A stretch of DNA of 53,744 nt from a virus (lineage: Duplodnaviria; Heunggongvirae; Uroviricota; Caudoviricetes). Positions 46,579 to 50,260 of this stretch are shown here, in pieces; within the stretch, counting starts at the first letter, position 1; each line of letters begins with the position of its first letter. The notes under the pieces were generated by a model, which did no database searches, was not told the origin of the DNA, and saw nothing but the letters and a program-made list of their open reading frames with translations. Location: the IMG/VR virus record IMGVR_UViG_3300026549_000042, positions 1-53,744 of that record, one strand, 5' to 3'. The translations under genes were made by a program, and so were the position numbers.

Positions 46579-46639
46579 GTAGGTTAGAGTTACTTCAATA
46601 TAAAACTGGTCATTTTACACTTTAATCGCTTGTTCCTAC
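46579..46639 (+). ncRNA. GAGTTACTTCA-motif RNA, copy A
   Basis: GAGTTACTTCA...TACACTTT-N6-TTGTT within closing stem GTAGG/CCTAC. Confidence 0.6.
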
Positions 46640-46649
46640 TTAATATTTA

Positions 46650-46680
46650 GGGCCTTTAGCTCAGTTGGTTAGATCAACAG
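46650..46680 (+). pseudogene. Truncated tRNA 5' half (Ile/Met-like)
   Basis: GGGCCTT-TA-GCTC-AGTTGGTTA-GATC-A-ACAGA, then non-tRNA sequence; no matching 3' half seen in the window. Confidence 0.7.
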
Positions 46681-46703
46681 AATTTCCTTTATCATGTTAT
46701 AAT

Positions 46704-46777
46704 ACTCTGGTAGCTCAGTAGGTTAGAGCAGTACTCTTATAAAGTAAAGGTCGCCAGTTCAAGTCTGGCCCAGAGTA
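46704..46777 (+). tRNA. trnI: tRNA-Ile(UAU)
   Basis: Loop CTTATAA, full cloverleaf. Confidence 0.85.
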
Positions 46778-46875
46778 CAAATATGAAATTATAAATTACG
46801 AACACTTAGAATTTATTAAAAGTAGTATTTTGATTGGGTTATGCTTCCTAAGAATATAGACAAAAAGCAATTAAT

Positions 46876-46949
46876 GCCACAATGGCGCAATTGGTTAGCG
46901 CAGGAATCTTATACATTCAAGGTTGGTGGTTCAAGTCCATCTTGTGGTA
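46876..46949 (+). tRNA. trnI: tRNA-Ile(UAU), second copy
   Basis: Loop CTTATAC, full cloverleaf; sequence divergent from the first copy. Confidence 0.8.
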
Positions 46950-46970
46950 CTTTGTGTGCCATGCAAAATT

Positions 46971-47043
46971 CACTTAGTGTAGTTGAGAGTTACTTCATTA
47001 ATGTTTTTGGTTTAATCTTATACTTTCAATGATTGTTCTAGTG
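46971..47043 (+). ncRNA. GAGTTACTTCA-motif RNA, copy B
   Basis: GAGTTACTTCA...TATACTTT-N6-TTGTT within CACTTAG/CTAGTG. Confidence 0.6.
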
Positions 47044-47054
47044 AATATATTTTG

Positions 47055-47126
47055 GGGATTTAGTTTAACTAGCGAAAACACGAGTTTTGCAAACTCGAGA
47101 TTCCGGGGCAGCACCGGATTTCTCCA
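47055..47126 (+). tRNA. trnA: tRNA-Ala(UGC) with atypical T-loop
   Basis: CGAGT-TTTGCAA-ACTCG, G3.U70, A73; T-loop GGCAGCA. Confidence 0.75.
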
Positions 47127-47145
47127 CTTATTTTAAAAATGTTTT

Positions 47146-47219
47146 GGTTCCATGGTTGAATGGTTTACAATGCCGCCCTGTCACGGCGCGCGGTGCGGGT
47201 TCGAATCCCGTTGGGACCG
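47146..47219 (+). tRNA. trnD: tRNA-Asp(GUC)
   Basis: Loop CTGTCAC, G73. Confidence 0.92.
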
Positions 47220-47323
47220 CAATCGGCTTGGAAAGAACTGCAAGTTTCATTAGCGGCAACTAATCAAACCCATAGAAGCATAGCGTCACGTATTCTAAAC
47301 AAACGAAGTATTTGCCGGTACTT

Positions 47324-47393
47324 GTATGTTCTGGTGTAAAGGCAGCATACCGTCGTGAAGAACGGAGGAAAGGTTCGAATCCTTAAACATAGC
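47324..47393 (+). tRNA. Degenerate tRNA, possibly Phe(GAA)
   Basis: D- and T-arm motifs present, but the anticodon loop is 8 nt (CGTGAAGA) and the acceptor stem has mismatches. Confidence 0.45.
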
Positions 47394-47608
47394 AATCTTA
47401 TAAATGTTTTATACATTTATAAATTTTAATGAAAGAAAGGGAAGATGAGTAGGTTATAATTTATAAGTTTAATAACCTTGAAATGATTGTCGAGATGATT
47501 ATGCATTTCTAAAATTTATTATAAAAACTTATCGTAATTAAGTACTTACGTAATTTGTACTTTATTTATTTATGGGAAACTATTATACATACGGTTTCCC
47601 ATTTTACT

Positions 47609-47691
47609 GGGAGGGTAACCGGTAATTGGTAGCCGCGCGGACTGTAAATCCGCTCTCTCTGAGACTGGGGGTTCGAATCCCTCTCCTCCCA
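47609..47691 (+). tRNA. trnY: tRNA-Tyr(GUA)
   Basis: GCGGA-CTGTAAA-TCCGC, long variable arm. Confidence 0.92.
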
Positions 47692-47797
47692 CAAAGTTGA
47701 AATTTAATCATATATAAGTATGAGTAGGGGTTGCCATTAAGTTGGAGGACCGAAAAGAGGGATATAATGATTATCTTGCAAGAATTTCAGCTTTATT

Positions 47798-47873
47798 GCT
47801 TCCGTGGCGTTAATGGTTGTAGCGTTCCAGACTCTTAATCTGTGAGGTAAGGGTTCGAATCCCTTCGGGAGCA
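47798..47873 (+). tRNA. trnK: tRNA-Lys(CUU)
   Basis: Loop CTCTTAA. Confidence 0.88.
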
Positions 47874-47970
47874 CATAGAGTGATTAGCAGCTAATTATGG
47901 GCGACAATGGCTTGCTTAGCCCAGTGTTCAATTGTACAGTTGAATCTAAAAAAATCGAGGAGCCTCCAAT

Positions 47971-48043
47971 GATCTCGTAACTCAGTTGGTAGAGTATCAC
48001 ACTTTTAATGTGAGAGTCGAGGGTTCGAGTCCCTCCGGGATCA
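47971..48043 (+). tRNA. trnK: tRNA-Lys(UUU)
   Basis: TCACA-CTTTTAA-TGTGA. Confidence 0.92.
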
Positions 48044-48146
48044 CATTAAAATATTTTAAATGACTTTTTGAATATTTTAAAGTTGTTTACAATATTATTA
48101 TATATAATTTATAAAAATGGTCTTTGACATATTGATATAATAAAAT

Positions 48147-48231
48147 GCCGAGATGATGGAATCGGTAGACATGACAGACTTAAAATCTGTTGACCATTGC
48201 GGTCGTGTGGGTTCGAGTCCCATTCTCGGTA
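48147..48231 (+). tRNA. trnL: tRNA-Leu(UAA), second copy
   Basis: ACAGA-CTTAAAA-TCTGT, long variable arm. Confidence 0.92.
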
Positions 48232-48275
48232 CTATAAATCATTCGAGGTTCAAGAATTGTAGAATGATTTAACTT

Positions 48276-48349
48276 AGGGAGGTAGTTCAGTTGGTTAGAA
48301 TGCTAGTTTTGGGAACTAGTGGTCGCGCGTTCGAGTCGCGTTCTCCCTA
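48276..48349 (+). tRNA. trnP: tRNA-Pro(UGG)
   Basis: CTAGT-TTTGGGA-ACTAG. Confidence 0.92.
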
Positions 48350-48401
48350 CTATAAAAATATCTAAGGTTTCAGAAAGTTGCCTGTAAATTGAATTTTATA
48401 T

Positions 48402-48476
48402 TGGGCTATGTTTGGTAGTGGTTCAACCTCTAACTCTTACAAAGTTAGGACCCCAGTTCGAATCTGGGTAGCCCAA
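48402..48476 (+). tRNA. tRNA with Val(UAC) anticodon on a Gln-type acceptor stem
   Basis: Loop CTTACAA; acceptor TGGGCTA/TAGCCCA-A identical to tRNA-Gln at 45855; extended anticodon stem. Confidence 0.7.
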
Positions 48477-48558
48477 CAAAAATATAAAAATCAAACTAAT
48501 TTTCATTATAAATTATTATTTTTAATTATATAAAATTAAGTTTGAATTTAACATATTT

Positions 48559-49467
48559 ATGATTTGCGAAAATTGTGGTAAAGAACATGATGGAGGTTAT
48601 GCATCTGGAAGATTTTGTTCTAAAAAATGTGCTCATTCTTATGTTACAAAGTATGATAATAAAAATGAATTAAAGGAATCTAAATGTATTGATTGTGGGA
48701 AATTAATATATATAAATAAAAGATCATCTAATAAATGTAGATGTGATAACTGTCAAAAAAATCATATTATGCCATCACAAATTAAAATATGTTCTATTTG
48801 TGGTAGTACTTATATTAAATCTGATGGTTGTAAAAATGAATTTTGCAAAAATCATAATTGGCAACAATTTAAATCTTTAATAAAATATTTTGGATTTGAT
48901 AAAACAAAATTAGGTACATTAGAAGTTGAAAATGAATTTAATAGAATTAGAGATATATTATATGATTTATATTGGAATAAACAATTAAGTGCAAGTGATA
49001 TTGGTAAAATTTATAATTATAAAAATTCACATAATATTATTCAAAAAATATTTAATTTTTTAAATATTCCAACAAGAAATTGTAAAGAATCCATAATTAA
49101 TGCATATTTACAAGGAAAAATGAATCTAATTAATAATGTTTATGGATATAAAGATTGTTGGCATATAACTTGGAATAATAAAGAAGTTTATTTAAGAAGT
49201 TCTTATGAATTAGATTATGCTAAAGAACTTGATAAACAACAAATTGATTATAAAGTTGAATTTAAACATATAAAATATTGGGATTCACAAAAACAAGAAT
49301 ATAGATGTGCAATACCTGATTTTTATATTCCTAAAGATAATATGATAGTTGAAATTAAATCATCTTGGACGTTAGATAAGCAAAATATGATAGATAAAAA
49401 ACGAGCATATTTAGACTTAGGATATAAATTTAAATTAATTTGCGACCACAAAGAATTAGAAATATAA
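48559..49467 (+). CDS. Free-standing endonuclease (N-terminal Zn ribbons, C-terminal PD-(D/E)XK, TnsA-N-like)
   Basis: CENCGKEH...FCSKKCA; YLRSSYELDYA...IPDFYIPKDNMIVEIKS. Ends 4 nt before the intron-containing tRNA. Confidence 0.78.
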   Translation: MICENCGKEHDGGYASGRFCSKKCAHSYVTKYDNKNELKESKCIDCGKLIYINKRSSNKCRCDNCQKNHIMPSQIKICSICGSTYIKSDGCKNEFCKNHNWQQFKSLIKYFGFDKTKLGTLEVENEFNRIRDILYDLYWNKQLSASDIGKIYNYKNSHNIIQKIFNFLNIPTRNCKESIINAYLQGKMNLINNVYGYKDCWHITWNNKEVYLRSSYELDYAKELDKQQIDYKVEFKHIKYWDSQKQEYRCAIPDFYIPKDNMIVEIKSSWTLDKQNMIDKKRAYLDLGYKFKLICDHKELEI

Positions 49468-49471
49468 TATT

Positions 49472-49757
49472 GCTTCGGTAGCTCAGGGGCAGAGCATCTG
49501 ACTGTCTTTTTAATGGCAGCTCTTCATGGAAACATGTTAGATGAAAATTCCGCTAATTCGGTGAATTTAGTATTTCGTGTAAGTACTGTGACGCCGAGCT
49601 AAATCAAGGTAAAACTTGTAAATGTGTACAGACTATAGACGGAACACCTAAACAAATTGCATGGTGATAACATAGTCGAGACAGCAACAGAAATGGTCTT
49701 AGTGATAAGATGCTGTATGTAATCAGAGGGTCGGGATATCGTAATTCCCCCGAAGCG
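49472..49757 (+). tRNA. trnN: tRNA-Asn(GUU) split by an intron at 35/36 (exons 49472-49505, 49720-49757)
   Basis: Joining the exons gives GCTTCGG...TCTGA-CTGT|TAA-TCAGA...CCGAAGC-G73. Confidence 0.88.
49506..49719 (+). mobile_element. ORF-less group I intron (214 nt)
   Basis: P1 CTGT|C with GGCAG, U.G at the 5' splice site; P3 TTCCGC/GACGGAA; P4 TTCGGT/GCCGAG; P7 CAGACTA/TAGTCG; P8 CACC/GGTG; P9 ACAGCA/TGCTGT; terminal G. Confidence 0.9.
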
Positions 49758-49876
49758 CTAAAAAATAACAATAGATATTGGTAAACATAATGATAATTTT
49801 GCTAATGAAAAATTTAATGAGTTTATTGAATATTTAAAGGAAAATAACTATTTATAAAATATAAATACTAATATAT

Positions 49877-49960
49877 CGCGGTCTAGTCTAATGGTAAGAT
49901 GGTAGGCTCATAACCTACAGACAGAAAATGCTTGTCCAGGTTCGATTCCTGGGGCCGCAA
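49877..49960 (+). tRNA. tRNA-Met(CAU), initiator-like (C1.A72) with long variable arm
   Basis: GTAGG-CTCATAA-CCTAC; variable region of about 17 nt. Confidence 0.8.
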
Positions 49961-50127
49961 CTATAAAAAGGCGTCTTAAAAATGGGTAAGCGGGTTCCCC
50001 TCTGGAGTATGAAAGTAATCCGTTAACAATGTAATATATGAAATACTAATTAATCTCGTGGAGGCAGACCACTTCGACCGGAGTAATTAACCGGAAACAT
50101 GCATAGTATTTCATATTAAATTTTAAG

Positions 50128-50260
50128 TTTCAGTTGTTGTAAAGGAGAGTTACTTCATTAAATAATAATTTTAACAACAGTAGTTTTAGAGACCGAGATT
50201 TATGATAGCGATTATAAATGTTAGGGAATTTTTATACTTTCTTTGATTGTTACACTGAAA
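50128..50260 (+). ncRNA. GAGTTACTTCA-motif RNA, copy C (long loop)
   Basis: GAGTTACTTCA...TATACTTT-N6-TTGTT within TTTCAGT/ACTGAAA. Confidence 0.6.

What the first reader, a model, noticed from the sequence alone, without database searches (positions are those of the whole stretch)
46579..50260. Three dispersed copies of an unrecognised structured RNA motif between tRNAs
Seen: GAGTTACTTCA at 46587, 46987 and 50147. Each is followed, after a variable 18, 21 or about 75-nt loop, by TAYACTTT-N6-TTGTT, inside closing stems whose sequences differ but still pair. AGAGT-TA pairs with TA-Y-ACTTT, leaving a bulged pyrimidine. Conserved core, compensatory flanks and a free loop point to a protein-binding ncRNA family. 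Inference: Y-RNA-like scaffold, sponge for a host defence or RNA-binding protein, or a processing signal.
Basis: partly seen in the sequence, partly recalled or inferred. Interest (0 to 1): 0.72.

Follow-up and report, generated by a model that had tools for sequence, protein, structure and literature searches.

The report
Phage Y RNAs among tRNA genes
The three repeated hairpins are real small-RNA genes of a large cattle-rumen phage and belong to a widespread branch of the known Y RNAs, partners of the RNA-quality-control protein Ro60, that standard RNA libraries miss.

Summary
In detail: three copies (46568-46643, 46968-47046, 50127-50261, + strand), the only ones in the 142-kb contig of a T4-like jumbo phage from bovine gut samples. 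None matches Rfam. The same core recurs in over 60 viral contigs and in bacteria of several phyla, with compensatory changes in both stems. It travels with Ro60: TROVE is in 28/41 motif-bearing viral records (16/16 of those at least 90% complete) against 1/33 control records, usually a few hundred bases away on the same strand. Many relatives carry the permuted tRNA-like domain of YrlA in the loop (Rfam YrlA 30-45 bits, below its cut-off of 69). The UGUA here sits where a Ro60-adjacent relative has the CGAA Ro-binding motif. These copies are therefore Y-RNA-like hairpins without a tRNA domain (YrlB/Yrn2-like) with a UGUA handle. The contig has no Ro60 gene, but it is probably only about a third of the genome, and clade relatives keep Ro60 32-200 kb from their copies. 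Binding and transcription were not shown. This scan already reported the same RNA family beside Ro60 on other DNA. Verdict: new variant of a known kind.

The parts
46568..46643 (+). Y-RNA-like hairpin, copy 1 (18-nt loop). Bulged U 46575, UGUA 46578-46581, AGAGUUACUUC 46586-46596, 3' inner arm 46619-46627, 7-nt loop strand 46628-46634
   Evidence: 71.9 bits; 20/21 pairs
46968..47046 (+). Y-RNA-like hairpin, copy 2 (21-nt loop), between tRNA-Ile (46876-46950) and a tRNA at 47054. Bulged U 46975, UGUA 46978-46981. A copy in L001 precedes the same tRNA type
   Evidence: (76.5 bits)
50127..50261 (+). Y-RNA-like RNA, copy 3 (75-nt loop that folds into two weak hairpins, no T or D arm), just before tRNA-Thr (50267). 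Bulged U 50135, UGUA 50138-50141
   Evidence: 47.4 bits; 21/21 pairs; similar copies in L035, L039, L040, L104
45292..52557 (+). tRNA island that holds the three copies: 17 Rfam tRNA hits, boxA-like TCTTTGACATATTG sites near 46159 and 48122 (a variant near 45736), terminator-like hairpins near 45270-45310 and 52526-52557. Probable polycistronic precursor or precursors (inferred)
   Evidence: an independent contig L194 spans 45292-52530 at 100% identity

Best explanation
The three elements are genes for Y-RNA-like RNAs of a UGUA-handle subfamily. Inferred steps: they are transcribed with the tRNAs as a polycistronic precursor and released when the neighbouring tRNAs are processed. The 5'/3' terminal stem, with its bulged U and the UGUA internal loop, is the docking site for a Ro60 (Rsr/TROVE) ring, most likely the phage's own, encoded in the unassembled part of the genome. 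The variable loop is the effector position. Relatives carry a tRNA-like module there; these copies carry only a short U/A-rich loop (copies 1 and 2) or a 75-nt insert (copy 3). They would therefore gate or occupy Ro60, or tether it to a single-stranded-RNA-binding partner such as host PNPase, shaping turnover or protection of structured RNAs such as the phage tRNAs during infection. Shown: structure by covariation, family membership, Ro60 linkage of the family, YrlA-type domain in relatives. Not shown: transcription, processing, binding, partner and role.
For: Covariation over 26 short-loop members: 88% of cells paired, all 10 outer pairs with two-sided changes, score 0.713 against 0.197 shuffled and 0.11-0.18 slid (members were chosen for pairing, so this leans). 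Less biased test on all 106 raw 5'-motif hits: 37% close the stem with their own downstream DNA against 0.9% with swapped DNA. Ro60 link: 28/41 motif records and 16/16 of those at least 90% complete have TROVE; 1/33 chance-hit records do (these are smaller on average). Within loci, Ro60 is present for 23/39 stem-closed hits, all on the same strand, against 1/28 likely chance hits; distances are 19-3705 nt, mostly under 500. Bacterial genomes (Clostridia, Bacteroidota, Mesorhizobium, Anaerolineales) carry the motif next to Ro60. L007 has four tandem copies with CGAA just upstream of a TROVE+vWA gene. The model built with the window copies hits the same elements that Rfam YrlA scores at 30-45 bits. 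Chen 2014 (PMC4201824) defines GNCGAAN0-1G, a conserved YUAY, hairpin-only second Y RNAs (YrlB, Yrn2) and a Yrn2 precursor shared with tRNA-Asp. By major capsid protein the phage sits in a supported clade (100/99) with G046 and G048, both Ro60-positive, and with 376- and 435-kb genomes. G048 keeps Ro60 about 200 kb from its 7 copies, and G037, which has the same copy spacings and looks like a fragment of that phage, shows no TROVE. Complete relatives G059 and G060 have neither motif nor TROVE.
Against: No Ro60, DUF2828 or RtcB gene in the 142-kb contig (the DUF2828 search had no positive control). The canonical GNCGAAN0-1G is not met: two positions differ. Single C-to-U or A-to-U changes in CGAA weaken Thermus phage Ro60 binding 3- to 4-fold (PMC12135203), so binding needs a co-adapted Ro60 or is weaker. 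The window copies lack a tRNA-like domain and give no Rfam YrlA hit. Several motif-rich partial relatives, including G029 (236 kb, 7 copies), show no Ro60. No RNA-level data were obtained.
Confidence: 0.7

Rival explanations
1. Orphan Y RNAs: same RNA family, but this phage lineage has lost Ro60 and uses the hairpins as decoys that titrate or redirect the host's Ro60.
For: No Ro60 in G000 or in G001, G004, G007, G010, G012, G014, G029, G032, all partial records with the motif. An ADP-ribosylglycohydrolase-like gene lies 0.3-14 kb upstream of Ro60 in G034, G046 and G048, but has no Ro60 downstream in G000 or G010. Bacteroidota and Clostridia carry the same handle beside their own Ro60, so a host target exists.
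Against: 16/16 near-complete motif records encode TROVE. Clade genomes are 376-435 kb, so the contig is probably 33-38% complete. G037 against G048 shows how a fragment hides Ro60. The marker gene sits in another neighbourhood in G000 and G010 and gene order is shuffled, so the synteny argument is weak.
Confidence: 0.18
2. Decayed remnants of YrlA genes that lost the tRNA domain and no longer function.
For: Copy number varies from 1 to 11 among relatives. The array holds truncated and degenerate tRNAs, including two tRNA 5' fragments flanking copy 1.
Against: The core is invariant while stems differ yet pair. Minimal hairpins are the commonest topology (33 of 108 resolved) and also occur next to bacterial Ro60 genes. 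Hairpin-only Y RNAs are known Rsr ligands (PMC4201824).
Confidence: 0.07
3. A cis-acting processing or antitermination signal of the tRNA operon, recognised by a host nuclease or RNA polymerase factor.
For: The copies sit between tRNA genes in a boxA-containing operon.
Against: In most other phages and in bacteria the motif lies beside Ro60 without a tRNA array. Position relative to tRNAs is not fixed, and the motif is fused in several topologies to tRNA-like domains.
Confidence: 0.05

Closest known systems
YrlB (Salmonella, M. smegmatis) and Yrn2 (D. radiodurans): hairpin-type second Y RNAs (Chen et al. 2014, PMC4201824)
   Same: Long hairpin closed by 5'/3' ends, small pyrimidine-rich loop, no full tRNA domain, several Y RNAs per genome, co-transcription with a tRNA (Yrn2).
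   Different: UGUA in place of CGAA, a conserved AGAGUUACUUC block, and dispersal through a phage tRNA array far from the Ro60 gene.
YrlA (Rfam RF02553; Chen 2014; Wang 2018, 10.1101/312249)
   Same: Relatives in this family carry the T-AS-D permuted tRNA domain and hit RF02553 at 30-45 bits; UUAC fits the conserved YUAY; the family lies beside Ro60.
   Different: The window copies have no tRNA domain and no RF02553 hit; no tested member reaches the cut-off of 69 bits; handle-to-YUAY spacing is 8 nt against 11 in the Rfam consensus.
Thermus phage phiLo Ro60 with Yrl1/Yrl2 (PMC12135203)
   Same: Phage-encoded Y-like hairpins with stem-bulge-stem, bound by phage Ro60 and able to engage host PNPase: the working model here.
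   Different: Those carry CGAA and lie directly upstream of Ro60; binding was shown there and not here.
crAss001 TROVE locus (MH675552; early gene per PMC8375218)
   Same: Its TROVE protein is 63% identical to the Ro60 of clade-type phage G034, and its upstream region carries the same UGUA family.
   Different: Adjacent to Ro60 and includes a tRNA-order form; no description of these RNAs was found in the papers searched.

Membership tests
Bacterial/phage Y RNA (Ro60 ligand) | Long stem formed by 5' and 3' ends with an internal loop; about 80-220 nt | tested here: met
   76, 79 and 135 nt; covariation (true ends not mapped)
Bacterial/phage Y RNA (Ro60 ligand) | 5'-strand Ro motif GNCGAAN0-1G | tested here: not met
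   Copies read G-G-UGUA-G, A-G-UGUA-G and G-U-UGUA-A-A. The same register holds CGAA in L007 and CGUA or UGAA in others: a homologous variant, not the canonical motif
Bacterial/phage Y RNA (Ro60 ligand) | Encoded within about 4 kb of Ro60 on the same strand | tested here: not met
   No TROVE in the contig. Met by many family members but not by this clade, where Ro60 is 32-200 kb away
Bacterial/phage Y RNA (Ro60 ligand) | Ro60 encoded in the same genome | tested here: inconclusive
   Contig incomplete; clade relatives G046 and G048 have it
Bacterial/phage Y RNA (Ro60 ligand) | Bound by Ro60 and accumulates as a discrete RNA | not testable with these tools
   No binding assay; read laying failed
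YrlA (RF02553) | T-AS-D tRNA-like domain | tested here: not met
   Absent from all three copies; present in relatives such as L007, L045, L142, L152
YrlA (RF02553) | Score at or above 69 bits | tested here: not met
   No hit at the copies; relatives 30-45 bits
YrlA (RF02553) | Conserved YUAY after the Ro motif | tested here: met
   UUAC in all three copies and in the family core (it is part of the search pattern)
YrlB/Yrn2-type hairpin Y RNA | Long hairpin with small pyrimidine-rich loop in a genome or lineage that also has a tRNA-like Y RNA | tested here: inconclusive
   Shape met by copies 1 and 2; tRNA-like siblings occur in relatives (L001, L187, L188) but none is in this contig

The most novel reading that the evidence does not exclude
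This phage lineage has no Ro60 of its own and keeps three cargo-less Y RNAs in its tRNA operon as RNA decoys that capture the host's Ro60, an RNA-only counter to a host RNA surveillance or repair system.
Probability: 0.18. Interest if true: 0.7.

Novelty: new variant of a known kind. Interest (0 to 1): 0.38.

Why it matters
Y RNAs in bacteria and phages are known, but the UGUA-handle branch falls below Rfam's threshold and its hairpin-only members are invisible to it. A short pattern now finds them in crAss-like phages, jumbo phages and several bacterial phyla. In this clade the RNAs are uncoupled from the Ro60 gene, expanded to as many as 11 copies inside tRNA arrays, and carry interchangeable loops. 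That gives a natural series for testing what the Y RNA effector module does, and cultured crAss001 offers a bench system. It extends a known class; it is not a new system.

Tried and rejected
Rfam at gathering and E-value thresholds: nothing at the three copies. Single-strand folding: not significant. Alternative genetic code: coding coverage is already 0.89 under table 11, so no recoding is indicated despite a CUA-anticodon tRNA. Sigma-70 promoter scan: 39 sites against 30.4 +/- 4.9 in shuffles, not informative. Transcription: two metatranscriptome runs of one bovine sample hold 0.90-0.91 of the words, but an RNA run may hold DNA. Four identical contigs end at 52501-52532, three of them at a terminator-like hairpin, which fits transcript ends but also assembler breaks at a palindrome; not counted as evidence. 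Synteny test for Ro60 loss: gene order too shuffled. Extending the contig by identical proteins gave only short contigs. Chen 2014 supplements and two Wolin reviews were not held, so I cannot say whether UGUA-type members are among their 254 bacterial and 22 phage predictions. A LicT/RAT antiterminator likeness recalled from memory was dropped: no Rfam hit.
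Full report
Observation. The 11-mer occurs exactly three times, at 46587, 46987 and 50147. With one mismatch, 5 matches are seen against 0.94 expected. The loops are 18, 21 and 75 nt and each is followed by TAYACTTT-N6-TTGTT. All three lie on the + strand in a tRNA island (16 ARAGORN genes, 17 Rfam hits). Rfam has no match at the copies, even at E 10. Single-sequence folds are not significant (z -0.8 to -1.3).

Genome. The window is the first 54 kb of a 142,335-base linear virus record, 27% GC. It has T4-like sheath, prohead protease and capsid genes by my reading of the ORF list. 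Holders are mostly bovine gut samples. A covariance model and a loose pattern find only these three copies.

Finding the family. In register, L007's CGAA-N4-AGAG equals the window's UGUA-N4-AGAG. A pairing filter kept 77 distinct elements in 66 sources. The consensus is an outer stem, a bulged U, 2 bp, UGUA or UGAA opposite 6-7 nt ending in UU, a 9-bp inner stem with AGAGU, then UACUUC and a free loop.

Structure. On 26 short-loop members 88% of cells pair, all 10 outer pairs show two-sided changes, and the covariation score is 0.713 against 0.197 shuffled and at most 0.18 slid. These members were selected for pairing. In a less biased test, 39 of 106 raw hits close the stem with their own downstream DNA against 0.9% with swapped DNA.

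Link to Ro60. TROVE is in 28 of 41 motif-bearing viral records, and in 16 of 16 that are at least 90% complete. It is in 1 of 33 records reached by chance hits, which are smaller on average. Within loci, Ro60 accompanies 23 of 39 stem-closed hits, always on the same strand, against 1 of 28 likely chance hits, mostly within 500 nt. In bacterial genomes the motif lies beside Ro60 in Clostridia, Bacteroidota, Mesorhizobium and Anaerolineales. Those elements score 30-45 bits on Rfam YrlA (cut-off 69) and 41-62 bits on the model built with the window copies. The family comes in several layouts: minimal hairpin (33), YrlA order (15), stem around D..T in tRNA order (7), and whole tRNA with the handle in the anticodon position (29) (rough automatic classes).

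Comparison with print. Chen et al. 2014 (PMC4201824) define the GNCGAAN0-1G motif and a conserved YUAY, report YrlA in 254 bacteria and 22 phages near Ro60, and note that each studied species also has a hairpin-only Y RNA; Yrn2 is co-transcribed with tRNA-Asp. Thermus phage Ro60 binds two CGAA hairpins and forms complexes with host PNPase; single C-to-U or A-to-U changes cost 3- to 4-fold in affinity (PMC12135203). I found no paper describing a UGUA-type branch, but key supplements and reviews were not held. The window copies fail the strict YrlA tests (no tRNA domain, no CGAA, no adjacent Ro60), so I do not file them as YrlA. They are homologous to YrlA-like, Ro60-adjacent RNAs and look like YrlB/Yrn2.

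Does this phage have Ro60? None is in the contig. The capsid tree puts it in a supported clade with Ro60-positive G046 and G048 and with 376- and 435-kb genomes, so 142 kb is probably about a third of the genome. G048 has seven copies about 200 kb from its Ro60; G034 has three about 32 kb away; G037 has the same copy spacings as G048 and shows no TROVE. Complete, more distant relatives lack both. Against this, eight other partial motif records lack Ro60, including 236-kb G029. A marker gene near Ro60 in three relatives has no Ro60 downstream here, but its neighbourhood differs. I put the orphan reading at about 0.18.

Mechanism. Shown: a conserved, covarying Y-RNA-type stem whose family is tied to Ro60. 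Inferred: co-transcription with the tRNAs, release by tRNA processing, docking of Ro60 on the bulged-U/UGUA strand, and a gate or tether role for the short loop, possibly with host PNPase. Not shown: transcription or binding.

Verdict. Earlier notes of this scan describe the same family beside Ro60 in crAss-like and other phages; I checked the layouts independently. Interest 0.38.

Noticed in passing
window 49471-49759: tRNA gene split in the anticodon by a roughly 213-nt insert with group I intron hallmarks (5' exon ends in U, insert ends in G, GACUA/UAGUC P7-like pair). Joined exons give a tRNA-Asn(GUU)-like anticodon loop. Missed by ARAGORN and Rfam. L001 has a similar insert in another tRNA.
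   Followed up: partly
window 48559-49467: 302-aa ORF with Cys-rich N-terminus and a PD-(D/E)XK-like C-terminus (weak DUF7487 hit) directly upstream of the intron-bearing tRNA; possible free-standing homing endonuclease.
   Followed up: partly
window 46537-46556 and 46676-46695: A 20-nt direct repeat follows two tRNA-like 5' fragments that flank copy 1. It is reproduced in independent contig L194 and not found in relatives except a 3-mismatch copy in L141. Origin unexplained.
   Followed up: partly
window 50824-50895: tRNA with CUA anticodon (amber suppressor-like) although the contig reads well under table 11.
   Followed up: partly
window 45560-45685, 45930-46040, 47325-47395, 50585-50668, 50740-50818: Several atypical tRNA-like genes with T arms and acceptor stems that ARAGORN and Rfam miss; 45930-46040 has an enlarged D/anticodon region. 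Other unannotated structured-looking stretches lie at 46180-46500, 49965-50115 and 50360-50480.
   Followed up: no
L033:14175-14325, L100, L077 (crAss001), L188, L039, L040, L022, L141: Whole tRNA bodies in normal order whose anticodon arm is replaced by the same UGUA handle, closed by a short loop. Already noted by earlier reports of this scan.
   Followed up: partly
L032, L098, L106, L113, L187, L188, L189: The handle stem encloses a D-anticodon-T module in tRNA order, so annotated tRNAs may really be Y RNA cargo.
   Followed up: partly
L154:9799-11253 (G034): The Ro60 of these T4-like jumbo phages is 63% identical to crAss001 TROVE, hinting at exchange between unrelated phages of Bacteroidota; no tree was built.
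   Followed up: no
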